Below are positions 5,151 through 54,942 of a stretch of DNA of 63,675 nt, in pieces (the first letter of the stretch is position 1; each line of letters opens with the position of its first letter). A model generated the notes under the pieces. That model was not told where the DNA came from. It saw nothing but the letters and a program-made list of their open reading frames with translations, and ran no database searches. Made by a program: the position numbers and the translations under genes. Source of the stretch: Patescibacteria group bacterium. Lineage in GTDB: Bacteria > Patescibacteriota > JACPGU01. The stretch spans positions 1 to 63,675 of the forward strand of contig JAQULF010000004.1 of the NCBI GenBank assembly GCA_028718745.1, in the 5' to 3' direction.

Positions 5151-5262
5151 GTTGGTTCAATGCTCCCGCATTGAACCATGAATGTACAATAACGCATTAA
5201 AAAATCTTTTTAGAAACTTCAAGATGTACATATTAGGTTCAAATCAGGAGATTTGAACCAAC
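5151..5262 (+). mobile_element. 112-bp REP-doublet (REPIN/MITE-like) element, copy 1
   Basis: Terminal inverted hairpins GTTG-GTTCAATG-CTCCCG-CATTGAAC-C and GGTTCAAAT-CAGGAG-ATTTGAACC-AAC; 110/112 identical to 6689-6800; lies between the protease stop and its terminator. Confidence 0.7.
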
Positions 5263-5377: not shown

Positions 5378-6670
5378 ATGAAGATTTTCATTTATGATGA
5401 ATTCGGACCGGAAAACACGGCCATGATGCAGGCGCTTTATTCCAGAAGCGCCGAAAGTGTTGAGAAGCATGCCGAGCAGGTAAAATCCACCGGATCCGGC
5501 AAATTTATGGAGAAATTCTATGTCGGTTACGGACATTCCAGCATCGCCGATTGCGGAAGCACGACGGTTTTTATTGAACAAATAAGTATTTTGGCAGACA
5601 AAGCTTTGCAAGATTGGCCACTTTATTCGGGACAAGAAACCAGCACTCGCTATGTCGATATGGCCAAACAAGCCATCATTGACCCGATTGGTAACAAAGA
5701 ATCAAAAGAGATTTTGGACAAATGGATGGCTTTTTATGTGGGAAGCCAGGAGGAAGTCGAAAAGCATTTGATGAAAAAATATCCCAAAAAGCCGGATGAA
5801 GACGAGGCCGTTTATGGGAAAGCGATTAAAGCCAGATGTTTCGACAGTTTGCGCGGTTTTTTGCCGGCCGGAATTACGACGCAATTAAGTTGGCACACCA
5901 ATCTTCGCCAAGCCGCGGACAAATTAGCAACTTTGCGATATCATCCTTTGGCAGAAGTTAGAGAAATGGAAGAAAAAATACTTTCAGCTCTTCAAGAAAA
6001 ATATCCGAGCAGTTTCAGCCACAAGCTTTATGACGAGCAGGAAAAATACAGAAAAATGGTGGGGGAGAATTATACTTATTTCGGCGAGCAAAAGTTGGCC
6101 AAAGATTTTTCTTTCACAACGACAATTGATCCGAAAGAGTTAAGTGAATATAAAACGCTGATTGAGAATCGACCGGAAAAAACCAATCTGCCATATTTTT
6201 TGGCGGACTTGGGATTAAATAATTTTGAGTTCTATCTCGACTACGGATCGTTCCGTGATATTCAAAGGCACCGCAATGGCGTTTGCCGAATGCCACTTTT
6301 GACCACCAAATTTGGTTTTCATCAATGGTATTTGGAGCAATTACCCGATTCAGTTCGTAGCGAAGCGGAGAAATTAATTGAGGAACAAAAAACTGCAATT
6401 GCAAAACTAAAAGCTAGCAAAGAAGATTTGCAGTATTATATTGCAATCGGTTTTAATGTTGTCTGCCAAGTTTCTTACGGATTGCCGGCAACTATTTATA
6501 CAGTTGAATTGCGTTCTGGAAAAATGGTGCATCCAACTTTGCGCGTCATAGCGCATCAGATGTGCGATGCATTGACTGAAAAATTTCCAGATCTTATGCT
6601 TCACGCCGACAAATCTCCGAGCGATTGGGATATTCGAAGGGGATTGCAGGATATCAAGCCAAAAGAGTAA
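5378..6670 (+). CDS. thyX: Flavin-dependent thymidylate synthase ThyX-like, double-length (two Thy1-like halves)
   Basis: GHSSI, SGQETSTRYV (SxxxxSxRY-like) in first half; RHR motif (FRDIQRHRNG) only in second half; sits between nrdJ and tmk-glyA. Confidence 0.65.
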   Translation: MKIFIYDEFGPENTAMMQALYSRSAESVEKHAEQVKSTGSGKFMEKFYVGYGHSSIADCGSTTVFIEQISILADKALQDWPLYSGQETSTRYVDMAKQAIIDPIGNKESKEILDKWMAFYVGSQEEVEKHLMKKYPKKPDEDEAVYGKAIKARCFDSLRGFLPAGITTQLSWHTNLRQAADKLATLRYHPLAEVREMEEKILSALQEKYPSSFSHKLYDEQEKYRKMVGENYTYFGEQKLAKDFSFTTTIDPKELSEYKTLIENRPEKTNLPYFLADLGLNNFEFYLDYGSFRDIQRHRNGVCRMPLLTTKFGFHQWYLEQLPDSVRSEAEKLIEEQKTAIAKLKASKEDLQYYIAIGFNVVCQVSYGLPATIYTVELRSGKMVHPTLRVIAHQMCDALTEKFPDLMLHADKSPSDWDIRRGLQDIKPKE

Positions 6671-6688
6671 TTATAAATCATTTCCAGC

Positions 6689-6800
6689 GTTGGTTCAATG
6701 CTCCCGCATTGAACCGTGAATGTACAATGACGCATTAAAAAATCTTTTTAGAAACTTCAAGATGTACATATTAGGTTCAAATCAGGAGATTTGAACCAAC
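6689..6800 (+). mobile_element. 112-bp REP-doublet (REPIN/MITE-like) element, copy 2
   Basis: Same orientation as copy 1, 2 mismatches (A/G at two positions). Confidence 0.7.
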
Positions 6801-6844
6801 AATTAGATATTCGCAGGGGATTACAAGATATTAAAGAAAAATAA
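6801..6844 (+). pseudogene. Relic of a thyX 3' end
   Basis: 6806-6844 reads DIRRGLQDIKEK*, versus current thyX end DIRRGLQDIKPKE* (6629-6670); 25/30 nt identical in the core; in-frame TAG upstream inside the repeat; ends 2 nt before the tmk ATG. Confidence 0.6.
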
Positions 6845-6846
6845 AC

Positions 6847-7521
6847 ATGCAAAAAGGTAAATTTATTGTTATTGAAGGAACCGATGGTTCCGGTAAGGCG
6901 ACGCAAATTGAATTGTTATCCGAGAGATTAAAAAAAGAAGGTTTAGAAATAGAAACCGCCGATTTTCCTCAATATGATAATTTTTCAAGCGGTTTCGTAG
7001 CCAAATACCTGCGGGGTGAATATGGTACGCTTGATGAAGTTGGGCCATATCGAGGATCAATTTTTTTCTCTGTCGATCGTTATGATAAATCATTTGATAT
7101 TAAAAAATGGTTAGATGAAGGCAAAACAGTTTTTAGCAATCGCTATACTTCCGCCAATATGGGACACCAGACAGCCAAGATTGAAGGTAAAGAAAAAAGA
7201 GACGAATTTCTGGACTGGCTTAATCATTTGGAATTTGATATTTTTGAGATTCCTAAACCGGATTTAACAATTTTGCTTTTTGTGCCTCCGGATATCGGAC
7301 AAAAATTAGTCGATAGAAAAGAAGCGCGAGAATATACGAAAGGCAAGAAAAGAGACATTCACGAAGCTGATATTAATCATTTGAAAAAGGCCTCGGAAGC
7401 ATTTCTTTATGTAGCGGAAAAATATGGCTGGACTGTCATCGATTGCACCGAAAATGGCCAACTTCTTTCTCGCGAAAAAATCCATGAAAAAATATATGAA
7501 GTAGTTAAAAAAATAATTTAA
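6847..7521 (+). CDS. tmk: Thymidylate kinase
   Basis: P-loop IVIEGTDGSGKATQ, DRY-like SVDRYDKS, lid region. Confidence 0.93.
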   Translation: MQKGKFIVIEGTDGSGKATQIELLSERLKKEGLEIETADFPQYDNFSSGFVAKYLRGEYGTLDEVGPYRGSIFFSVDRYDKSFDIKKWLDEGKTVFSNRYTSANMGHQTAKIEGKEKRDEFLDWLNHLEFDIFEIPKPDLTILLFVPPDIGQKLVDRKEAREYTKGKKRDIHEADINHLKKASEAFLYVAEKYGWTVIDCTENGQLLSREKIHEKIYEVVKKII

Positions 7522-7526
7522 AACCC

Positions 7527-8726
7527 ATGAAAGACAAACAAATTGAGAAGCTTATAAAGGCGGAAGAGGAGAGGCAGGAAAAAACTATTTCCCTGATCGC
7601 TTCGGAAAATTATGTTTCCGACGATGTTCTGACTGCGCTTGGATCCAAATTTACCAACAAATACTCCGAAGGTTATCCGGGTAAAAGATATTATAAGGGC
7701 CAAACTTTTACCGATGAAGTGGAAAATCTTTGCCAAGAAAGAGCGCTAAAACTATTTAAGCTTTCACCTGAAAAATGGAGCGTTAATGTTCAGCCACTTT
7801 CCGGTTCACCGGCAAATCTGGCTGTTTATGTGGCGCTCGTACCGCTGGGTGAAAAAGTAATGGGTATGTCGCTCGATCACGGCGGACATTTGACTCACGG
7901 CCACAAAGTTTCGGTTACCGGAAAATTTTGGCATCAGATTCCTTATGGCGTAAATAAAGATACAGAGGTTATCGATTATGATGAAATAAAGAAAATTGCG
8001 CTAGAAGAAAAACCAAAAATGATTATCGCCGGATATACCGCCTATCCTAGAATTGTAGATTTTAAAAAATTCAGAGAGATTGCTGACGACAACAATGCGA
8101 TTCTTATGGTAGATATGTCTCACTTTGCCGGACTCGTCGCGGGAGAAGCTTATCCATCTCCATTTGAATATGCGGATATTGTAACTACTACCACGCATAA
8201 AACTTTGCGAGGTCCGCGAAGTGCTTTAATTTTTGCTCGCAAAGATAAAACTCAAACCAGCGCCAAGGGTAATGAAGTCAGTTTTGCTGATCTGATAGAC
8301 AAAGCCGTATTTCCCGGACTTCAAGGCGGTCCGCACATGAATCAAATCGCAGCAGTTGCCGTGGCGCTAAAAGAAGCAGATACACCGGAGTTTAAAAAGT
8401 ATGCTGAACAAGTTATAAAAAATGCTCACACATTGACAGATGAATTGAAAAAGTTGGGCTGGAAAATTATTTCCGGAGGAACAGATAGTCATCTTATTCT
8501 GGTAGATACATTTATGGGGGGCGAAGGAATGAGTGGGGCCGAAGCTAGTGATAAATTGGAAAAAGAGGGGATTATCGTCAATAAAAATACGATTCCAAAT
8601 GAAACTCGAAGCCCAATGGATCCTTCCGGCATTCGCCTCGGCACCGCCGGCGAAACCACAAGAGGAGCAAAAGAAAAAGATATGGTGAATCTAGCGAAAC
8701 GAATTGATGAGGCGTTAAGAAAATAA
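7527..8726 (+). CDS. glyA: Serine hydroxymethyltransferase
   Basis: SLIASENY, PLP-lysine block TTTTHKTLRGPRSALIF. Confidence 0.95.
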   Translation: MKDKQIEKLIKAEEERQEKTISLIASENYVSDDVLTALGSKFTNKYSEGYPGKRYYKGQTFTDEVENLCQERALKLFKLSPEKWSVNVQPLSGSPANLAVYVALVPLGEKVMGMSLDHGGHLTHGHKVSVTGKFWHQIPYGVNKDTEVIDYDEIKKIALEEKPKMIIAGYTAYPRIVDFKKFREIADDNNAILMVDMSHFAGLVAGEAYPSPFEYADIVTTTTHKTLRGPRSALIFARKDKTQTSAKGNEVSFADLIDKAVFPGLQGGPHMNQIAAVAVALKEADTPEFKKYAEQVIKNAHTLTDELKKLGWKIISGGTDSHLILVDTFMGGEGMSGAEASDKLEKEGIIVNKNTIPNETRSPMDPSGIRLGTAGETTRGAKEKDMVNLAKRIDEALRK

Positions 8727-8806
8727 ACTCGAGCTTTGCATATTTACAATTTGGCTGTTTTAAGCTAGAATTAAACAAAAAATCCAAGAAAGCGGGGCGA
8801 CTACCG

Positions 8807-9751
8807 GTGAAAAAAAACCTAAAGAAAGTAGTGGTAATTGCTGTACACGATAAAACGATTCACGCTGACGAAGTGTTCGCGGTAGCAATCCTGAAAATGT
8901 TGCTTAACATACTATACAAAGACGATCCGAAGAAAATCCGGATCGTGCGCACGCGTGACAAGAAGCTACTCGCCGAAGCAGATTTCCGCATTGATGTTGG
9001 AATGGAATACGATGGCTCAAACAACTGGGATCACCATCAGTTCGATACGGATAAGGGCGAAGGAGTTCGGGAGAATGGCATCCCATTTTCGTCGGCCGGA
9101 CTCCTGTGGCACATATATGGACCGCAAGTCTGTGGCGATGCAGATGTCGCGGAAATCGTCGAGAAAAAGCTGATATGGTCCATCGACATACAGGACCACA
9201 ACAAAGGCATCCCATCATTTCCGCACTACAAAAAAGCCCAGCCATTCACAGTTTCGAGCCTTATCGCGATGTTCAACCCGGTATGGAACGATGGCGGCGC
9301 AGACCCAGATAGAGACTTCGAGCAAGCGGTGCTCGTCGCGGAAACGATTCTCAAAAGAACGATCGCCTATGCCGAAGCGGTCGTCGCAGCAGATTCGGCC
9401 GTTTACATGGCCAGCCTGGAAGCAGATCGCAAGCATAAGCTCTATGTGGTGCTTAAAGACAATGTGCCATGGAGAGAAATCATTCATCGTTATGTCCCAA
9501 AAAGCATGCTCTATGTGATCTGCCGAGTCCCAGGCAAAAAGGATGAGCGCTGGGTCGCATATTGCATCGAAGACAAGGGGAAACATCGCAAGAGCTTCCC
9601 GGCAAAATGGGCCAATCGCGAAGGAGAAGCCCTGGCAAAAGTAACCGGAGTGGTCGACGCTTTATTCTGTCACGCCGGTCTCTTTACCTGCAGTGCGACA
9701 ACGCTTGAAGGTGCTATCGCGCTCGTGGAGCTCGCCATCGCGGCCGAGTGA
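8807..9751 (+). CDS. MYG1/UPF0160-family metal-dependent hydrolase (GC-rich gene)
   Basis: GTG start; HDKTIHADEVFAVAILK, VRTRD, DVGMEYDGSNNWDHHQF; 52% GC in hand-counted 9301-9360. Confidence 0.75.
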   Translation: MKKNLKKVVVIAVHDKTIHADEVFAVAILKMLLNILYKDDPKKIRIVRTRDKKLLAEADFRIDVGMEYDGSNNWDHHQFDTDKGEGVRENGIPFSSAGLLWHIYGPQVCGDADVAEIVEKKLIWSIDIQDHNKGIPSFPHYKKAQPFTVSSLIAMFNPVWNDGGADPDRDFEQAVLVAETILKRTIAYAEAVVAADSAVYMASLEADRKHKLYVVLKDNVPWREIIHRYVPKSMLYVICRVPGKKDERWVAYCIEDKGKHRKSFPAKWANREGEALAKVTGVVDALFCHAGLFTCSATTLEGAIALVELAIAAE

Positions 9752-17247: not shown

Positions 17248-17347
17248 GGGTCTACAAATTACGAATTTATTACGAATGTACGAATTTTTTTCCTAATAAT
17301 TTTCTCTTATCTTATTCGTATATTCGTACCTATTCGTAATTCGTAGA
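17248..17347 (+). repeat. ~97-bp TACGAAT palindromic element, copy 1
   Basis: GGGTCTACaAATTACGAAT...ATTCGTAATTCGTAGA; outer 16 nt form near-perfect inverted termini (one mismatch in this copy). Confidence 0.8.
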
Positions 17348-17810: not shown

Positions 17811-17913
17811 CTCCCTAATTATCCCAAATTAAACCCGAATATCCCGAATTTTCGGAAAAATATTTTGTACTATTAGGGAAAATTAGGGATAAATTAGGGA
17901 ACATTCGGGAAAA
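17811..17913. repeat. Intergenic word palindrome (CCCTAATT / CCCGAAT words)
   Basis: ctccctaattatcccaaattaaacccgaatatcccgaatt ... attagggaaaattagggataaattagggaacattcggga. Confidence 0.75.
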
Positions 17914-17932
17914 ATACTATAAAAATAACTAT

Positions 17933-26318: not shown

Positions 26319-26402
26319 CCCCAGTCAAATTTGAAAACTATTTGACAGGGTTTACCCTAGTCAAATCCCAATGCAGTTGGGAGCGAAGCTATTTGACAGG
26401 GT
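26319..26402. repeat. Alternating AGTCAAAT / ATTTGACAGGG word palindrome, overlapping the U32 stop
   Basis: cccAGTCAAAT..ATTTGACaggg-ttt-accctAGTCAAAT..ATTTGACaggg. Confidence 0.7.
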
Positions 26403-27894
26403 GAATTTTCTTTCTCAAAATAGATCGCTCCGGGATTTCTTTTTTCCTTGTCCCGGGTATTCCCGAGGGAGCATCAAATGTAACCCAAACTTTTTCTTGT
26501 GGTTTTAAAATTTCTTCTAATTCAGGTCCGGGTGAAAAATTTTGCGCCCCTATGTTTTTTCTAATTTCTTTAATCTTTGTTTTTATAATCTCATCCGGCG
26601 TTATAATTTCAACTTTATCGCCAACTTTAAATTTATTTTTTACTTCAACTAAATACAAATATGTTGGTTCCGAGTTCAACTCGGAACCTTGATGCGAACT
26701 AACAACCGAGATAATTTGTCCAATTGGAATTACCGGCGGCCTGAAAGCCGCTACATTATATTCCTGTTCGTAATCGTGGCGGCCAAGTAGAAATCCATGA
26801 CTGTAACCTCTATGCTGAATCATATTTAATTCTTTATAAAGATCTTTGATTAATTTTTGATATTTTTCTCTGTTCTTATCAAAGATCCTTGATTTTCTGT
26901 TGGGTACAACAGAAGCTCGAGGATGACAATATACATAATATGCATTGATTGCCTTGCGATAAATGCGGGTTACAACTGCTAAATAATAAATGCTCTTTGC
27001 TCGTCCTTCAATTTTTAAAGAATCAATTCCCGATTCGATAAATTTATCTAATATGTCGAGCGAACAAATCTCTTTTGAATTCATAAAATATGTACCATTC
27101 TCATCTTCTTGTACCTCAACCAAATCTCTCGGACGAGTTTCTTCTTCAAGAAAACATTCTTGAAGTCCGACATCAAGATTAATCTTGATGTCGGACTTCG
27201 GAACCATCTTGACTTTGTATTTCCAGCGACAGCTTTGCGCGCAATCACCAAGATTCGCTTCTCGGCCGGTAAAATATTTTGACAATAAACATCTCCCCGA
27301 ATATGCCATACACATCGCGCCATGGCCGAAAACCTCTAATTCAGGTATGGTCCCGATGTTCAACTTAGGGGAATCCCCTAAGTTGAACATCGGGGATTTG
27401 GCCATTCTCTTTTTAATTTCCTTAATTTCTTCCAGCGTTGTTTCTCTCGCTAAAACCACCCTCTGCGCACCCAGCTTACCCCACATCATAACCCCTTCAG
27501 AATTTAAGGTATTCGCTTGCGTAGAAATATGAATCTCAACTTTGGGTAGATATTTTTTAACTAATGAAAACATTCCTAAGTCTGAAACGATAACCCCATC
27601 AGGAGAGGCCTGTAATTTTATTTTAATTTCTTTTAGCGCTCTTTCAATTTCCTTGAGTTGATTTTCATGCGGAAAAACATTAAAAGTTAGATAAACCTTC
27701 ACCCCTCGCTCATGCGCAAACTTAATTCCTTCCTTCAAAGTTTTCAAAGTGAAAGTAATTTCACGGGGATTTCGCAAACTCCAAGAGGGGAGTCCGCAAT
27801 AAACCGCATCCGCGCCAAAAACAACGGCTGTTTTTAGCCGTTCTAAGTCTCCGGCTGGACAAAGAAGTTCAATTTTTTTAATAGCTTTTTTCAT
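26389..27894 (-). CDS. Peptidase U32 family protein
   Basis: ELLCPAGDLERLKTAVVFGADAVYCG, EVFGHGAMCMAYSGRCLLS; carries three in-frame repeat insertions. Confidence 0.88.
   Translation of the reverse strand: MKKAIKKIELLCPAGDLERLKTAVVFGADAVYCGLPSWSLRNPREITFTLKTLKEGIKFAHERGVKVYLTFNVFPHENQLKEIERALKEIKIKLQASPDGVIVSDLGMFSLVKKYLPKVEIHISTQANTLNSEGVMMWGKLGAQRVVLARETTLEEIKEIKKRMAKSPMFNLGDSPKLNIGTIPELEVFGHGAMCMAYSGRCLLSKYFTGREANLGDCAQSCRWKYKVKMVPKSDIKINLDVGLQECFLEEETRPRDLVEVQEDENGTYFMNSKEICSLDILDKFIESGIDSLKIEGRAKSIYYLAVVTRIYRKAINAYYVYCHPRASVVPNRKSRIFDKNREKYQKLIKDLYKELNMIQHRGYSHGFLLGRHDYEQEYNVAAFRPPVIPIGQIISVVSSHQGSELNSEPTYLYLVEVKNKFKVGDKVEIITPDEIIKTKIKEIRKNIGAQNFSPGPELEEILKPQEKVWVTFDAPSGIPGTRKKEIPERSILRKKIHPVK
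26530..26553 (-). repeat. Degenerate 24-nt REP-like palindrome in frame in the U32 gene
   Basis: Gene strand ATAG-GGGCGCAAAATTTTTCACCC translated IGAQNFSP; compare VGAQNFAP at 36474-36497. Confidence 0.6.
26881..26929. repeat. 49-nt hairpin element in frame in the U32 gene
   Basis: aaagatccttgattTTCTGTTGggtaCAACAGAAgctcgaggatgacaa; 46/49 match to intergenic 35126-35174; translated CHPRASVVPNRKSRIF. Confidence 0.8.
27352..27394. repeat. 43-nt perfect palindrome inside the U32 CDS
   Basis: CCCGATGTTCAACTTAGGGGA-A-TCCCCTAAGTTGAACATCGGG (21-nt arms), translated within SPMFNLGDSPKLNIGT. Confidence 0.85.
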
Positions 27895-27905
27895 AAAATT
27901 ATAGA

Positions 27906-28000
27906 GGGTCTACGAATTACGAATTTATTACGAATGTACGAATCCTTTTCTAATAGTTTTCTCTTATTCGTATATTCGTACCTATTCGTAATTCGTAGAC
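27906..28000 (+). repeat. ~97-bp TACGAAT palindromic element, copy 2
   Basis: Near-identical to 17248-17347, same orientation; in the divergent U32 / VirD4-like spacer. Confidence 0.8.
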
Positions 28001-32825: not shown

Positions 32826-32869
32826 TAAACCTCTTTATAAATAAAAACTATTGCGCTATTATTATTTTT
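32826..32869 (+). repeat. 44-bp direct repeat, left copy (flanks the RAYT unit)
   Basis: TAAACCTCTTTATAAATAAAAACTATTGCGCTATTATTATTTTT, identical to 33652-33695. Confidence 0.85.
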
Positions 32870-32930
32870 ATTGCAAGCAATCCTAAAAACAAACAATATG
32901 CCAAGAAATACAAAAATTATTGTAAACTGT

Positions 32931-32957
32931 GTTGGCTCCATGCTCCTGCGTGGAGCC
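32931..32957 (+). repeat. REP hairpin, left flank of RAYT
   Basis: GTTG-GCTCCATG-CTCCTG-CGTGGAGC-C; exact reverse complement at 33559-33585. Confidence 0.85.
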
Positions 32958-33001
32958 TAAATGTTCAATAAAGCATTAAAAACATTTTAGACAAAAATAA
33001 A

Positions 33002-33541
33002 ATGCCCACACCAAGAGTAAATAAAGAAAATGAAAGTTTCCCTCATTTTGTAACTATAACTACCATTGAGTGGTTGGATATTTTTACCAAAAAAGAATAC
33101 TTTGAGATTATGATAGATTGTCTGAAATACTGCCGAGACAAATTAGGTCTTTTGCTTTATGAGTATGTCTTTATGACCAATCACATTCACTTAATAATCC
33201 AATCTAAAGAAGGATATAAACTATCTCAAATAATAAGCAGTTTCAAACAATTCACCAGTAAGAGAATATTAGACGAATTAGAGAAAGATCATAGAAAATA
33301 TATTTTAAAAATAATAGAAAATAGCTTTAGCAAAAAGGAAGGAACACAAATTCAAATCTGGCAGAGAGAAAACTACCCGGAGGTTTTAGAAACGGAAAAA
33401 TTTATGGATCAAAAGATTGACTATATTTATAATAATCCAGTTAAAAAAGGTTATGTAGAAAAACCGGAAGATTGGACTTATTCTTCGGCAAGAAATAAAT
33501 TTTTAGACGACAACAGCGTTATTACTCTAGATGATTTTTAA
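33002..33541 (+). CDS. REP-associated tyrosine transposase (RAYT; IS200/IS605 Y1 HUH family)
   Basis: HUH motif FMTNHIHLII; catalytic-Tyr block IDYIYNNPVKKGYV; 179 aa; flanked by inverted REPs. Confidence 0.85.
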   Translation: MPTPRVNKENESFPHFVTITTIEWLDIFTKKEYFEIMIDCLKYCRDKLGLLLYEYVFMTNHIHLIIQSKEGYKLSQIISSFKQFTSKRILDELEKDHRKYILKIIENSFSKKEGTQIQIWQRENYPEVLETEKFMDQKIDYIYNNPVKKGYVEKPEDWTYSSARNKFLDDNSVITLDDF

Positions 33542-33558
33542 TACCCATGGTGCATTTT

Positions 33559-33585
33559 GGCTCCACGCAGGAGCATGGAGCCAAC
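33559..33585 (-). repeat. REP hairpin, right flank of RAYT
   Basis: GGCTCCACGCAGGAGCATGGAGCCAAC is the perfect 27-nt inverted copy of 32931-32957. Confidence 0.85.
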
Positions 33586-33651
33586 ATCCGGAAAATTAAA
33601 AAGGGAGGATTGTTAGTAGGTATTTTAATTAAAATGATTTTAATTCAGTCC

Positions 33652-33695
33652 TAAACCTCTTTATAAATAAAAACTATTGCGCTATTATTATTTTT
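33652..33695 (+). repeat. 44-bp direct repeat, right copy
   Basis: Identical to 32826-32869; here it continues into a TATAAT box. Confidence 0.85.
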
Positions 33696-33705: not shown

Positions 33706-33742
33706 CATTACTACGAATGGGCAGGGGAGGGGACATGCTGAT

Positions 33743-33780
33743 TTATTCGTATATTCGTACCAATTCGTAATTTGTAGACC
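33743..33780 (+). repeat. Right-arm-only remnant of the TACGAAT element
   Basis: tttattcgtatattcgtaccaattcgtaatttgtagacc matches the right arm of the 17248/27906/54846 elements. Confidence 0.6.
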
Positions 33781-34847: not shown

Positions 34848-34882
34848 CTCGACTGACAACAAAGGTCGAGTTTTTGTTTTTT
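34848..34882 (+). terminator. Rho-independent terminator
   Basis: CTCGAC-11 nt-GTCGAG followed by TTTTTGTTTTTTG. Confidence 0.65.
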
Positions 34883-35006
34883 GAACATTTTTCCGCGCTC
34901 AAAATACAATCTCAATGATCAAATACTCATCAAAATATAAAAAATTGATTGTGGCGCATTTAAATGCGAAATAGCTATTTTACAGGTTCAAAACCACTTT
35001 TAACTG

Positions 35007-35174
35007 TCATCCTCGAACTCTATTTCGTCTTTACTTTAATTATATATATAAAAAAGACGAAAAGAATATCAAGGATCTATTATTAGTTTGCTATAAGTTA
35101 TTTTGAAACCTTTTCGCATCCTGCCAAAGATCCTTGATTTCCTGTTGAGTACAACAGGAGCTCGAGGATGACAA
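35007..35174. repeat. Nested inverted-repeat complex built from GGATGACA and AGATCCTTGAT boxes
   Basis: TGTCATCCTCGA...(TTTCGTCTTT/AAAGACGAAA hairpin)...ATCAAGGATCT ... AGATCCTTGAT...TCGAGGATGACA; right half is the 49-nt element also present in the U32 CDS. Confidence 0.65.
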
Positions 35175-35203
35175 CTTCTAGAACGCTCGAGCACAGGAAT
35201 GAC

Positions 35204-35243
35204 AAGGGAGGAGGAAAAGAGGGGAGGCGAGAGAATAGAAAAA
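35204..35243 (+). repeat. Polypurine tract
   Basis: AAGGGAGGAGGAAAAGAGGGGAGG (24 uninterrupted purines), then CGAGAGAATAGAAAAA. Confidence 0.7.
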
Positions 35244-35427
35244 CACAAAATAGCATACAAACCTAACGGAAACGGAAAAACCAGTTTTAAAAAGAGCCCA
35301 TCTTGTTGAGTCGCATAACATACATTGTGCGACGCAGTAAATCTTATACCCTATCTCCAAATATCCTTGTTTTTTTGCTTTCTTGTTTTGTTGCTTTTTT
35401 GTCTTCTCCCCCACTTTCACTAGTCCC

Positions 35428-35459
35428 CTAAAACCAAAAAATCAGCCTTTTGCTGATTT
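35428..35459 (-). terminator. Rho-independent terminator (minus strand)
   Basis: Minus strand: AAATCAGC-AAAAG-GCTGATTT followed by TTTTGGTTTT. Confidence 0.7.
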
Positions 35460-35728
35460 ATATATTACAACATATTATAAAATATGTGTCAAGCTAGCCA
35501 AATGGAAAGGGAGGAGATGCCAAAAAACGACACTCTCCTCCCTGGAAATGCTTTCCCATGCAGTCCGTAGCTCGCCCTTGAGGACCTATTTGTTGCCCCA
35601 AGAACCGGAGTAACTTTCTTTTTCGCCCTTTTGGGGCTAGAAGAAAAATCGGGAAGATAGATTATACCGTTCCCGAGACTGCATCCGCCCGTGCTGCTCG
35701 CCGCTTTTGGCGGTTGCGGCACGAGAAA

Positions 35729-35812
35729 TCACGGACCGGCGCGCGACTGAAACAGCGTGGCGATGTTACCGGTATTACCCAGATAATGCTCGCTTAGCGT
35801 GTGCTGCTGCAT
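35729..35812 (-). CDS. 27-aa small ORF MQQHTLSEHYLGNTGNIATLFQSRAGP
   Basis: GGAGG 9 nt upstream of the ATG; no homology recognised. Confidence 0.3.
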   Translation of the reverse strand: MQQHTLSEHYLGNTGNIATLFQSRAGP

Positions 35813-35861
35813 TCGTCTTCACCTCCTTTGTTGGTGGGATGGGATTGGAATTTGTTTACCT

Positions 35862-35890
35862 ATTTTAATAAAAAAATAGCTAATAGTCAA
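35862..35890 (-). promoter_or_regulatory. Sigma-70-type promoter (minus strand)
   Basis: Minus strand TTGACT, 17-nt spacer, TAAAAT; begins 10 nt after the stop of the upstream gene. Confidence 0.55.
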
Positions 35891-35899
35891 TGATTTTGG

Positions 35900-36226
35900 C
35901 TATTTATTTTTGAATAAGTCCAAAACAATATAAGCATCACTGGATATTTGTGCCTCAAGATTACCACCAAAATAAGTTGCGGCTCCATGTTCTTTTAATG
36001 CATCACGAATCGCTCTCTTCGCCCTAAGATAATCATATTCTTTACCTCTCGAATCCGGGAACTGATGGTCATTATGTAAAATCATTGCGGCTTCTTGCAA
36101 TACATCATCCCGGCTAAGCTTGATCTCACGAAATTTATCATCCTTAACAATATAATAATTTTTCATTTTTTCATCAGTTTTCATTTCTATCGATTCTGGT
36201 TGCTGATTTATTCTTCCTTCATTCAT
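35900..36226 (-). CDS. Hypothetical protein downstream of VirD4-like paralog 2
   Basis: 108-aa ORF with AT-rich core composition, same strand, 52 nt after the ATPase gene. Confidence 0.5.
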   Translation of the reverse strand: MNEGRINQQPESIEMKTDEKMKNYYIVKDDKFREIKLSRDDVLQEAAMILHNDHQFPDSRGKEYDYLRAKRAIRDALKEHGAATYFGGNLEAQISSDAYIVLDLFKNK

Positions 36227-36278
36227 ATATTTTAGTTATTTATAATTATTCGTCCTAAATTAGTGGCGATTCGGATAT

Positions 36279-41955: not shown

Positions 41956-41960
41956 AATTT

Positions 41961-42044
41961 CTCCCGAATTATCCCAAATCATTCCCTAATTTTCCCCAAT
42001 TCCCATTCGGGATATTCGGGTGTAATTCGGGATAATTAGGGATT
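41961..42044. repeat. Intergenic word palindrome (CCCGAATT / CCCTAATT), second family member
   Basis: ctcccgaattatcccaaatcattccctaattttcccc ... attcgggatattcgggtgtaattcgggataattagggat. Confidence 0.75.
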
Positions 42045-44907: not shown

Positions 44908-44961
44908 AACCCCGCCAATCACGCCAAGCGTGAGCGGGAATTGCCAAAGGAGGCAAAAATC

Positions 44962-45849
44962 ATGAAACGGATACTCGTAATCGCGATCCTCGCGATCGTG
45001 GCAACATTCGTCAGCTTCATCGGCATCGCGCAGGCAGAGACAATGTATCTGAAAGAAGTGGCCTGCACGACATTCATCAAAGAGATGAAAACGAATGTCT
45101 GCTTCGCCTATCTGGCGAATCAGCCGAATTCCGCCGGCATTTACGACTCGGCACTCGAGTTCAATGAAGGCGGATGCGCCGATCCCCAAAGAACATCGGC
45201 CATGAGTAAGTCGTTCGTCGCCAATGGTGAAAAAGTACAAAGACTCGCTCTGTATGTGCCGAGACTGGATAAGTGCTTTTCCCAGACATTCGACGGCACA
45301 CCGATTCAAACGGTGAACGACAATGTCCGACTGGGAAATCAGTACGCCGCAGACACAAACGCAACTGCTCATGAAATTCAGGACAGCGCGACTCTCGTCG
45401 CGGCTTGCAAGAGCCGAGTCAACGCGAAATACCGGAAAACATTTAACTCCGGTACGACCTACGACTTTGCTCACGCGATCGCCGCCGCAACCTGCAAAAG
45501 CAGCAGCTGGTGCCCATATGTCGTTGCCGGCAGCGAGTTCAAAGCCGACATGCAGGACAGGAAATGGGCCATGGCAATTGTGGATTGCGAGAGTAATCCC
45601 GGTCCCATGACAGGCAACGAGCAAATGTACGCCGGCGCTCCGACAACACCGCCACCTTACTACTCGGCGCCCGCCGCGCCCATCTACTACCCGCCGGCAC
45701 CGAACTACGGCAGCGGATATGGCTACGAATATCCGCCGTACCCGCAAACACAGCGCGCGCCCGGCTCACGCCATATCTTCATGAACAACTGCATGCAGAG
45801 ATTCAACGACAGTGACTACTGTCATTACGCATACGAATACAACAGGTAG
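44962..45849 (+). CDS. Secreted hypothetical protein with Pro/Tyr-rich C-terminal region (GC-rich islet)
   Basis: AAGGAGG 8 nt upstream of the ATG; signal peptide ILVIAILAIVATFVSFIGIAQA; 50% GC in hand-counted 45001-45060. Confidence 0.55.
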   Translation: MKRILVIAILAIVATFVSFIGIAQAETMYLKEVACTTFIKEMKTNVCFAYLANQPNSAGIYDSALEFNEGGCADPQRTSAMSKSFVANGEKVQRLALYVPRLDKCFSQTFDGTPIQTVNDNVRLGNQYAADTNATAHEIQDSATLVAACKSRVNAKYRKTFNSGTTYDFAHAIAAATCKSSSWCPYVVAGSEFKADMQDRKWAMAIVDCESNPGPMTGNEQMYAGAPTTPPPYYSAPAAPIYYPPAPNYGSGYGYEYPPYPQTQRAPGSRHIFMNNCMQRFNDSDYCHYAYEYNR

Positions 45850-49038: not shown

Positions 49039-49425
49039 TTACCGCCATTTACTGTAGATTGAAACAACCTTGCGGCCTTCCTTCTTCGACCCCCAGTAGT
49101 TGATGCCTCCGCCTTTGATGACTGTCAGCCGAGGTGAATCCTTGTGGTAGCGAAAATAGTATCCGCCGGCTGAAATCATTGCGCGAAGCGCGAAAACAAC
49201 CGCAAGTACAGATACGACGCCCGCGGCAAGAAAACACCACGCGAACATTCCCTGCCAGCCGACCATGCGCAGGCAGAACAGCACGAAGAACACATCGAAG
49301 ACGGCGAGACAAAAAAGCCGCTTCTGATCCGGTGAAGAAGTCCGCCAGAGGAATGTTAATTCAAACTGAATGACATCTTTCCGCTGACGCATTGCGTTTA
49401 CCAACTTACTTAACCGATTTTTCAA
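49039..49425 (-). CDS. Hypothetical membrane protein (GC-rich islet)
   Basis: TTG start after AAAGGGGA; two TM helices (LFCLAVFDVFFVLFCL, FAWCFLAAGVVSVLAVVFAL). Confidence 0.45.
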   Translation of the reverse strand: MKNRLSKLVNAMRQRKDVIQFELTFLWRTSSPDQKRLFCLAVFDVFFVLFCLRMVGWQGMFAWCFLAAGVVSVLAVVFALRAMISAGGYYFRYHKDSPRLTVIKGGGINYWGSKKEGRKVVSIYSKWR

Positions 49426-54845: not shown

Positions 54846-54942
54846 GGTCTACGAATTACGAATTTAATACGAATATACGAATTCTTTTCTAATATATTTT
54901 TTTTCTTATTCGTAAATTCGTACCCATTCGTATTTCGTAGAA
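54846..54942 (+). repeat. ~97-bp TACGAAT palindromic element, copy 3 (inside the por operon)
   Basis: GGTCTACGAATTACGAAT...ATTCGTATTTCGTAGA between the porD stop and the porA start. Confidence 0.8.

What the first reader, a model, noticed from the sequence alone, without database searches (positions are those of the whole stretch)
35428..35890. Stand-alone transcription unit with strong promoter, SD-led 27-codon ORF, ~270-nt multi-helix tail and terminator
On the minus strand there is a TTGACT-17-TAAAAT promoter (35862-35890). It is followed by AAAGGAGGTG and an ATG at 35812 opening MQQHTLSEHYLGNTGNIATLFQSRAGP (stop 35729). A GC-rich tail follows with several mutually consistent helices. A long-range 8-bp pairing ATGCAGTC/GACTGCAT (35677-84 with 35558-65) encloses TCGGGAA/TTCCCGA (7 bp) and CCCCAA/TTGGGG (6 bp). 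Next comes GGAAAG-GGGAGGAGA / TCTCCTCCC-..-CTTTCC (9 bp plus outer stem). The unit ends at an intrinsic terminator (AAATCAGC-AAAAG-GCTGATTT + TTTTGGTTTT, 35428-35459). The signals delimit the unit unusually cleanly. The tail is too structured for a simple 3' UTR, and I could not match it to tmRNA, RNase P, SRP or 6S signatures. Candidates are a dual-function sRNA, a peptide precursor with a regulatory RNA, or a toxin/antitoxin-type RNA locus.
Basis: partly seen in the sequence, partly recalled or inferred. Interest (0 to 1): 0.65.

Follow-up and report, generated by a model that had tools for sequence, protein, structure and literature searches.

The report
Orphan mini-ORF plus structured RNA unit
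A well-formed little expression unit (promoter, perfect ribosome-binding site, 27-codon ORF, then a stably folded RNA tail) sits next to a secretion-system gene in an uncultured Patescibacteria genome. It occurs in this one genome only and matches no known RNA or protein family, so it stays a plausible but unproven candidate for a small bifunctional RNA.

Summary
The sequence features are real. They are a TTGACT-17-TAAAAT promoter, the only AAGGAGGTGA in 63.7 kb placed 6 nt before an ATG, a 27-codon ORF, a GC-rich tail (52-58% against 40%) and a hairpin with a U-run. The excess fold stability comes from the 3' part. This holds a 127-nt four-way junction (z -5.0) and a -23 kcal/mol hairpin (z -5.7). 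The ORF region is not unusually structured.

No Rfam, Pfam or NCBIfam family matches, and no tRNA or tmRNA is found. Protein searches found no homologue. No DNA match was found in plasmid or phage records, and two exact patterns were absent from viral contigs.

The host is a Patescibacteria chromosome from a landfill metagenome. Its closest relative (L010) keeps the whole gene order, but carries a HAD hydrolase gene where the window has the 108-aa gene plus this unit. Homology resumes at about 35496.

A covariance model of the core finds nothing in about 370 kb of related loci. No homologues means no covariation, and no RNA data exist.

Best reading (about 0.4): a lineage-specific bifunctional RNA or mini-mRNA. 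Main rival (about 0.3): a decaying remnant of acquired DNA. Interest is modest.

The parts
35862..35890 (-). Sigma-70-type promoter-like site TTGACT-17-TAAAAT. The inferred start is near 35855.
   Evidence: 10/12 match. Other genes of this genome have the same style of promoter, TTGACA-17-TATAAT. Transcription has not been shown.
35832..35848 (-). C-rich leader CCAAUCCCAUCCCACCA with two UCCC motifs. It is about half unpaired.
   Evidence: mean unpaired probability 0.46. No complementary site exists elsewhere in the window.
35819..35829 (-). Shine-Dalgarno AAAGGAGGTGA. GGAGG lies 9 nt before the ATG.
   Evidence: the only AAGGAGGTGA in 63.7 kb. About three quarters of the genes checked show no SD-like motif upstream.
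35729..35812 (-). 27-codon ORF MQQHTLSEHYLGNTGNIATLFQSRAGP with a TGA stop. It is in frame with a further 79 open codons running to 35489.
   Evidence: Codon score is -0.27 bits per codon and GC3 is 0.68, against 0.39 for genes. No family or homologue was found. The ORF region has z of only -2.0.
35687..35740 (-). Predicted hairpin domain directly after the stop codon. It is poorly defined.
   Evidence: pair probabilities 0.2-0.5. (z -0.9, not significant).
35558..35684 (-). 127-nt four-way junction: a 9-bp closing helix and three hairpins, one of them with three G-U pairs.
   Evidence: MFE -48.6, z -5.0, 0 of 200 shuffles. The minus strand folds better than the plus strand.
35508..35543 (-). 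Strong hairpin AGGGAGGAGA-G-UGUCG...UGGCA-UCUCCUCCCU, followed by UUCCAUUU. It is a possible intrinsic terminator that would end the RNA near 35500.
   Evidence: -23 kcal/mol, z -5.7. (pair probabilities about 1.0). The terminator role is my inference from the sequence.
35497..36278 (-). Lineage-specific segment holding the 108-aa gene (35900-36226) and the RNA unit. In the closest relative a 199-aa HAD hydrolase gene takes its place.
35462..35492 (-). Nearly invariant motif TTGACAnATATTTTATAATATGTTGTAATAT, which holds the palindrome CATATT-TTAT-AATATG. It is the first part of the conserved non-coding block and not part of the RNA body.
   Evidence: Similar pieces occur in other contigs of runs X1-X3.
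35428..35459 (-). It lies in the conserved block and is weakened in L010.
   Evidence: -8.1 kcal/mol here. The L010 version is -2.6 kcal/mol and no better than shuffles.

Best explanation
This is a lineage-specific, self-contained expression unit. It sits in the variable slot just downstream of a chromosomal type IV secretion coupling-protein gene of a Patescibacteria (Paceibacteria-like) bacterium.

Proposed mechanism:
- RNA polymerase starts near 35855 from TTGACT-17-TAAAAT.
- The first ~130 nt behave like an mRNA. They carry a 43-nt leader with a perfect 10-nt Shine-Dalgarno, an AUG and 27 codons, with little excess structure.
- The following ~230 nt form a stable RNA domain, made of a 127-nt four-way junction and a -23 kcal/mol hairpin.
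- The transcript ends either at that hairpin plus UUCCAUUU (about 35500, giving an RNA of about 355 nt) or at the next hairpin and U-run (about 35430, giving about 425 nt).

I read it as a bifunctional small RNA or mini-mRNA with the architecture of RNAIII, SR1 or SgrS. The mini-ORF would be translated. The structured 3' domain would protect the transcript and perhaps act as a regulatory or protein-binding RNA.

Shown: the sequence signals, the thermodynamic excess and its strand asymmetry, the absence from all known families, and the absence from the closest relative.

Inferred and untested: transcription, both transcript ends, translation, and any function of the 3' domain.
For: - The promoter, SD, ATG and hairpin signals are all present.
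- The 10-nt SD is unique in 63.7 kb and correctly spaced, in a genome where about three quarters of the genes checked show no SD-like motif.
- GC is 52-58% against 40% for the window. High GC relative to the genome is typical of structured RNA genes in AT-rich genomes (my own knowledge).
- Fold z is -6.1 for the whole unit, -5.4 for the core, -5.0 for the junction and -5.7 for the hairpin.
- The minus strand folds 12.5 kcal/mol better than the plus strand, and one junction arm has three G-U pairs that would be mismatches on the other strand.
- The excess structure lies downstream of the ORF, whose own region has z -2.0.
- No gene was called over the 754 nt after the 108-aa gene on the independent Logan contig.
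- No protein family or homologue exists for any frame tested.
- The body is single-copy in the metagenome, unlike the neighbouring palindromic repeats. It is therefore not one of this genome's mobile palindromes.
Against: - There are no homologues anywhere, so there is no covariation. Searches: plasmid and phage records, two exact patterns in viral contigs, 25 related T4SS loci, loci of the 108-aa family, and near-identical sequence in one landfill run only.
- The closest syntenic relative lacks the unit.
- The structure signal is not extreme for this genome, ranking 23rd of 635 windows.
- No GNRA or UNCG loops or other recognisable tertiary motifs are present (read by eye).
- The ORF has the worst codon score of any in-frame stretch tested.
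- No RNA-seq exists.
- Read depth is low at about 6x, so a sequencing error at the stop codon cannot be excluded.
Confidence: 0.4

Rival explanations
1. Non-functional remnant. A piece of horizontally acquired, GC-richer DNA has kept the donor gene's promoter-proximal region, SD and start codon. The gene has since been cut by a nonsense mutation and is decaying. The predicted helices would have no role.
For: - The segment is absent from the closest relative and lies in a slot where cargo differs between species.
- Its composition and codon usage are foreign to the host.
- The ATG frame has one TGA and then 79 further open codons.
- The surrounding region carries other debris and mobile palindromes.
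- No conservation is seen anywhere.
Against: - A z of -5 for the junction and -5.7 for the hairpin would be unusual for random or ex-coding DNA. Only about 3.6% of windows in this genome reach z -4.1, and several of those I inspected are palindromic repeats.
- The read-through protein has no homologue among 5.8 billion protein clusters, and its 77-aa second half has none among 1.84 billion cluster representatives.
- Neutral DNA in a 40% GC genome should lose GC over time, so the acquisition would have to be recent.
Confidence: 0.3
2. An ordinary small-protein gene. The 27-aa peptide is the only product, and the tail is just a long, stable 3' UTR with a terminator.
For: - The SD is unique, perfect and correctly spaced before an ATG.
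- The ORF region is not unusually structured.
- Other SD-led genes of this window also have poor codon scores, from -0.08 to +0.11.
Against: - The codon score of -0.27 is below every in-frame 28-codon stretch of the real genes tested.
- A ~230-nt, GC-rich, highly stable 3' UTR is costly in what is probably a small, streamlined genome (typical of Patescibacteria; my knowledge).
- The peptide matches no NCBIfam model.
- The peptide itself could not be searched against the large protein databases because it is under 30 aa.
Confidence: 0.15
3. A cis-acting element rather than a gene. It could be a leader-peptide attenuator for a downstream gene, or the structured 3' UTR of the coupling-protein and 108-aa operon.
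For: - The layout of a short SD-led ORF, hairpins and then a terminator resembles erm-type or trp-type attenuators.
- A second SD-like GGGAGGAGA is locked in the 3' hairpin against UCUCCUCCC.
- No terminator separates the 108-aa gene from the unit.
Against: - No gene follows on this strand. The next ~600 nt are non-coding and are conserved without the unit in L010.
- The 80-codon GTG ORF downstream has no intact counterpart in L010.
- The unit has its own promoter.
- Homologues of the 108-aa gene elsewhere have no such tail.
Confidence: 0.08
4. A DNA-level element of the secretion locus that acts as folded single-stranded DNA, such as an origin of transfer or a single-strand origin.
For: It lies next to a VirD4-like gene and forms a multi-hairpin fold.
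Against: - It is absent from the syntenic locus of the closest relative and from 25 other related loci.
- No relaxase was identified among the neighbouring ORFs scanned.
- The G-U pairs favour RNA on one strand.
- The locus is a conserved chromosomal region and not a recently integrated element.
Confidence: 0.04

Closest known systems
Dual-function small RNAs: Staphylococcus aureus RNAIII/hld, Bacillus subtilis SR1/SR1P, Escherichia coli SgrS/SgrT and AzuCR (from my own knowledge)
   Same: A stand-alone transcript of a few hundred nucleotides with its own promoter and terminator. It has a short SD-led ORF (26-43 codons in the known cases) and a multi-hairpin RNA part. Like the Staphylococcus regulatory RNAs, it has UCCC motifs in an exposed region.
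   Different: - No sequence or structure match to any of these Rfam families.
- The peptide is not amphipathic or haemolysin-like.
- No target complementarity was found in the window.
- No transcript, target or conservation data exist.
- The host is a Patescibacteria genome, where I know of no described regulatory RNAs.
Type I toxin-antitoxin mRNAs (hok/sok, tisB/istR, fst; from my own knowledge)
   Same: A small ORF within a highly structured, stable mRNA, often on mobile or accessory DNA.
   Different: The peptide is polar, with no hydrophobic helix of 15 or more residues. No promoter-like site on the opposite strand lies within the ORF or RNA body. No Rfam toxin or antitoxin RNA matched.
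Leader-peptide attenuators (trp, his, ermC; from my own knowledge)
   Same: An SD-led short ORF followed by hairpins, an SD-like sequence hidden in a hairpin, and a terminator.
   Different: There is no regulated gene downstream. The peptide has no run of a regulatory amino acid.
GC-rich intergenic structured-RNA candidates found by the Breaker laboratory's GC content and intergenic length screens (for example PMC8632094, listed and not read in full)
   Same: A long, GC-rich intergenic stretch in an AT-rich genome. That is the signature these screens use to nominate novel structured RNAs.
   Different: Those candidates are accepted only after covariation in many homologues. This one has a single representative.

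Membership tests
Any Rfam 15 family (tmRNA, RNase P, SRP, 6S, riboswitches, RNAIII, OLE, GOLLD, ROOL, HEARO, raiA, group I and II introns and others) | Score at or above the family's gathering threshold against its covariance model | tested here: not met
   No hit in the whole window at gathering. With E up to 10 over 35200-36100, only junk appears at 13-21 bits against thresholds of 40-140. The better E-values lie on the AT-rich promoter region of the other strand.
tRNA / tmRNA | tRNA-like acceptor and T arm, with a tag ORF for tmRNA | tested here: not met
   ARAGORN finds no gene in the window.
Dual-function small RNA (a functional class, not a homology family) | Independent transcript with defined 5' and 3' ends | not testable with these tools
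   Only promoter-like and terminator-like signals are available. No RNA run holds the sequence.
Dual-function small RNA (a functional class, not a homology family) | A translated small ORF | tested here: inconclusive
   For: a unique, perfect, correctly spaced SD. Against: very atypical codon usage. No ribosome profiling or proteomics data exist.
Dual-function small RNA (a functional class, not a homology family) | An RNA part with a base-pairing or protein-binding function of its own | tested here: inconclusive
   The 3' domain has significant excess stability. No target was found in the window, and covariation cannot be assessed.
Type I toxin-antitoxin | A hydrophobic membrane-active peptide and an overlapping or adjacent antisense RNA | tested here: not met
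   The peptide is polar. The only plus-strand promoter-like sites lie at 34881-34910, about 600 nt outside the RNA body.
Leader-peptide attenuator | A regulated gene directly downstream on the same strand | tested here: not met
   The downstream ~600 nt are non-coding and are conserved in L010 without the unit.
   nhmmer, blastn and covariance model R1 find nothing in 25 related loci totalling 342 kb. The syntenic slot in L010 holds a HAD gene.
This genome's palindromic repeat elements (MITE- or RPE-like) | Multi-copy, near-perfect long palindromes | tested here: not met
   The body is single-copy in the window and has single-contig depth of 6.4 in the metagenome, while the neighbouring element reaches 134-190. 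Its helices are short and imperfect, with G-U pairs.

The most novel reading that the evidence does not exclude
This is a genuine, previously undescribed bifunctional RNA of a Patescibacteria bacterium, encoded beside its type IV secretion locus. A 27-aa peptide and a four-way-junction RNA domain would be made from one transcript and act together, for example in controlling the secretion apparatus or the episymbiotic lifestyle. To my knowledge it would be among the first regulatory RNAs proposed for this radiation.
Probability: 0.15. Interest if true: 0.6.

Novelty: new member of a known kind. Interest (0 to 1): 0.3.

Why it matters
As far as I know, regulatory RNAs and small proteins of the Candidate Phyla Radiation are almost unexplored, and type IV secretion loci are thought to be central to how these bacteria live on their hosts. 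A real bifunctional RNA next to such a locus would be a useful entry point. As it stands, the unit is a single copy in one low-coverage metagenomic genome, with no relatives and no expression data. It does not yet make any open question testable. Its main value is as a flagged candidate to revisit when related genomes or metatranscriptomes appear.

Tried and rejected
- Known RNA families: Rfam at gathering and at E up to 10 and ARAGORN. Nothing found.
- Coding hypotheses: Pfam and NCBIfam on the ORFs tested, including the TGA read-through. A word-indexed search of 5.8 billion protein clusters with the 107-aa read-through. A full HMMER search of 1.84 billion cluster representatives with the 77-aa ORF. 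The last gave only one 5347-aa protein with no matched stretch, which I treat as a compositional artefact. An alternative genetic code was rejected because TGA ends 4 of 45 genes and long genes have no internal TGA.
- Pseudogene of neighbouring genes: tblastn with U32, with the L010 HAD protein, and with the neighbours of 108-aa homologues. Nothing falls in the RNA body.
- Homologue hunting: blastn against plasmid and phage records. Two exact patterns in viral contigs. Sequencing-run index. Contigs of three landfill runs at 80% likeness or better. Synteny through the coupling protein in GTDB genomes and JGI metagenomes. Synteny through the 108-aa protein family. nhmmer, blastn and covariance model R1 over all loci. 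Only the identical Logan contig was found.
- Target-site duplication or tandem duplication at the borders of the segment: a few 12-nt repeats, at about the number I estimate by hand for chance.
- Other GC-rich, SD-led loci of the window (49039-49425 and 44941-45849) were checked as possible sister RNAs. They look like membrane or secreted proteins.
- The first sliding z-score scan timed out. It was rerun with fewer shuffles.

Full report
**What is in the sequence**

Read on the minus strand, the region holds these features:
- TTGACT (35890-35885), a 17-nt spacer, then TAAAAT (35867-35862).
- A C-rich leader.
- AAAGGAGGTGA, then an ATG at 35812.
- A 27-codon ORF ending in TGA at 35729.
- A GC-rich body.
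- The hairpin AAATCAGC-AAAAG-GCTGATTT with a T-run at 35459-35428.

GC is 0.52-0.58 over 35550-35849. The flanks are 0.28-0.41 and the whole window is 0.40.

**Is it more than chance?**

Promoter-like sites are common in this AT-rich DNA, with 8 found against 4.3 expected in 1.6 kb. One terminator-like site is what shuffles give. Neither signal is significant alone. The promoter does have the same TTGACA-17-TATAAT style as other promoters in this genome.

The Shine-Dalgarno is a different matter. AAGGAGGTGA occurs once in 63.7 kb on both strands, against 0.15 expected for the whole window. It lies 6 nt before the ATG. About three quarters of the genes checked show no SD-like motif, and several have a TATAAT directly before the start codon.

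For structure, the numbers are:
- The 428-nt unit has MFE -151.5 kcal/mol and z = -6.1.
- The 184-nt core has z = -5.4 on the minus strand and -4.1 on the plus strand, with a 12.5 kcal/mol difference in MFE.
- One junction arm uses three G-U pairs that would be mismatches on the other strand.

I then measured this genome's own background with 635 windows of 200 nt on the minus strand. The mean z is -0.70 and the sd is 1.59. Window 35501-35700 ranks 23rd. Several of the higher-ranking windows that I inspected overlap palindromic repeats.

Folded domain by domain, the ORF hairpin (z -2.0) and the next domain (z -0.9) are unremarkable. The whole signal comes from two elements:
- A 127-nt four-way junction at 35684-35558 (z -5.0).
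- A -23 kcal/mol hairpin at 35543-35508 (z -5.7).

CCCCAA/TTGGGG has probability 0 and costs 7.8 kcal/mol if forced. The outer GGAAA/TTTCC stem has probability 0.01 and costs 2.7 kcal/mol.

**What it is not**

- No Rfam family matches at gathering in the whole window. Nothing credible appears at E up to 10 locally.
- No tRNA or tmRNA is found.
- No Pfam or NCBIfam hit exists for any ORF tested in the region, including the read-through of the TGA.
- The read-through frame has no relative among 5.8 billion protein clusters. The 77-aa ORF has none in a full HMMER pass over 1.84 billion representatives. The single listed protein has no matched stretch.
- TGA is a real stop codon here.
- The ORF's codon score is -0.27 bits per codon with GC3 of 0.68. 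That is below every in-frame 28-codon stretch of the real genes tested. A few other SD-led genes of this genome also score poorly, so this weakens the case for translation without excluding it.
- The gene caller behind the independent Logan contig called nothing in the 754 nt after the 108-aa gene.

**Where it sits**

The window is a chromosome, not a plasmid. It carries ribonucleotide reductase, ThyX, SHMT, IleRS, TGT, CysRS and SecD. It also carries two VirD4-like coupling proteins and a T4SS pilin-like gene.

Relatives of the 968-aa coupling protein are all Patescibacteria/Paceibacteria-type MAGs. An identical copy of the region exists only on a contig from one landfill metagenome run, at about 6x depth.

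The closest relative is L010, a 429-kb JGI contig. It keeps the whole gene order: SecD, two small genes, a sigma-70-region-4 plus HARE-HTH domain protein, the coupling protein (75% identity), a 184-aa gene (92%), the pilin-like gene, the second coupling protein (86%), U32 and TGT.

Between the coupling-protein gene and the next conserved sequence, L010 has a 199-aa HAD hydrolase gene. The window has the 108-aa gene plus the RNA unit in that place.

Homology resumes at window position ~35496. It begins with an almost invariant stretch, TTGACAnATATTTTATAATATGTTGTAATATAnAAATCAGCAAAAnGCT. It then runs for about 600 nt of non-coding DNA at 79% identity.

Three consequences follow:
1. The RNA body (35497-35890) is specific to this lineage.
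2. In L010 that hairpin is weakened to -2.6 kcal/mol.
3. The body carries its own plausible terminator, the -23 kcal/mol hairpin followed by UUCCAUUU. This would end the RNA at about 35500, which is exactly the edge of the lineage-specific segment. This last point is my inference from the sequence.

**Tests of linkage**

- nhmmer, blastn and a covariance model of the core (R1) find nothing in 25 related coupling-protein loci totalling 342 kb. The proposed co-localisation with VirD4-like genes is therefore not seen.
- The 108-aa protein belongs to a small family of six clusters at 49-60% identity; every member whose source is labelled or whose locus was inspected looks Patescibacteria-like.
- In two other genomes that gene follows a RhuM-plus-Fic domain gene. 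Nowhere is it followed by anything like this RNA.
- No RNA sequencing run contains the region.

**Interpretation**

The layout is an mRNA-like 5' third with an exceptionally good ribosome-binding site, followed by a 3' two-thirds that carries all the excess structure. This fits best a small bifunctional RNA or mini-mRNA of the RNAIII, SR1 or SgrS kind. I give this about 0.4.

The rivals are:
- A recently acquired, decaying piece of GC-richer DNA that kept a donor gene's start region (about 0.3). This fits the variable slot, the foreign composition, and the single in-frame TGA followed by 79 open codons. It does not explain the stability of the junction and hairpin.
- A plain small-protein gene with a long 3' UTR (about 0.15).
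- A cis-acting leader or operon 3' UTR (about 0.08). This is disfavoured because no gene follows on this strand.
- A single-stranded-DNA element of the secretion system (about 0.04).

Without homologues there is no covariation. Without RNA data there is no transcript. None of these readings can be settled with public data.

**Verdict**

It is an orphan candidate, at most a new member of a known kind, and of modest interest.

The neighbouring palindromic elements that insert in frame into the U32 gene, and the 600-nt conserved non-coding block, are arguably more tractable leads than the finding itself.

Noticed in passing
window 26389-27894 (U32 peptidase gene, minus strand), especially 27100-27420; also 35005-35178: The U32 gene carries lineage-specific in-frame insertions that are near-perfect long palindromes. 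One encodes 'KSPMFNLGDSPKLNIGT'. Region 27100-27420 has MFE -127.4 and z -8.7. The L010 orthologue lacks them and has different insertions at or near the same sites. Another copy of one element lies at 35075-35173, inside a 16-bp-closed multi-hairpin structure (z -7.3). In the landfill run that element reaches contig depth 134-190, against 6-11 for its flanks. This looks like a family of mobile palindromic elements that can insert in frame into genes, reminiscent of Rickettsia palindromic elements.
   Followed up: partly
window 34900-35496 (minus strand); L010 13538-14040: About 600 nt of non-coding DNA is conserved at 79% with the closest relative. It starts with a 48-nt, nearly invariant stretch (45/48) that holds the palindrome CATATT-TTAT-AATATG. 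Pieces of this stretch also occur in other contigs of the landfill runs. RNAalifold pairs a G-rich 5' segment with a CU-rich tract about 200 nt downstream in both genomes, but two sequences give almost no covariation. It could be an operator region, a small RNA gene or a long UTR.
   Followed up: partly
window 35900-36226 (minus strand); L027 5001-5309, L031 4123-4428, L009 345-641: The 108-aa protein belongs to a small family of six clusters at 49-60% identity; the members with a labelled source or inspected locus look Patescibacteria-like. In two other genomes its gene lies directly downstream of a RhuM-plus-Fic domain gene. It may be a Fic partner or antitoxin-like protein. It has no Pfam match.
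   Followed up: partly
window 32826-33695: An IS200-like Y1 transposase gene (33002-33541) is flanked by 34-nt palindromic inverted repeats (32930-32963 and 33553-33586) and by perfect 44-nt direct repeats (32826-32869 and 33652-33695). It looks like a REP-associated tyrosine transposase (RAYT) with REP-like flanks. It is absent from L010.
   Followed up: no
window 17249-17347, 27907-27999, 33738-33778, 54846-54941; 17811-17915 and 41957-42042: Intergenic arrays of 7-8-nt units (ATTCGTA-type, and AATTCGGG/ATTAGGGA-type) recur at several places and in some related loci. They may be binding-site arrays.
   Followed up: no
window 5151-5262 and 6689-6800: Two 112-nt direct repeats, 98% identical, flank the ThyX gene. 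Both lie in windows with very negative fold z-scores, down to -7.6.
   Followed up: no
whole window: About three quarters of the genes checked have no Shine-Dalgarno-like motif, and several have TATAAT a few bases before the start codon, which suggests leaderless mRNAs. The few SD-led genes tend to have GC-richer upstream regions and poorer codon scores. Stop codons are TAA 28, TAG 13 and TGA 4.
   Followed up: partly
L005 6001-9125 (the same contig as L016): The coupling-protein homologue is split into two adjacent ORFs (6001-7410 and 7416-9125).
   Followed up: no
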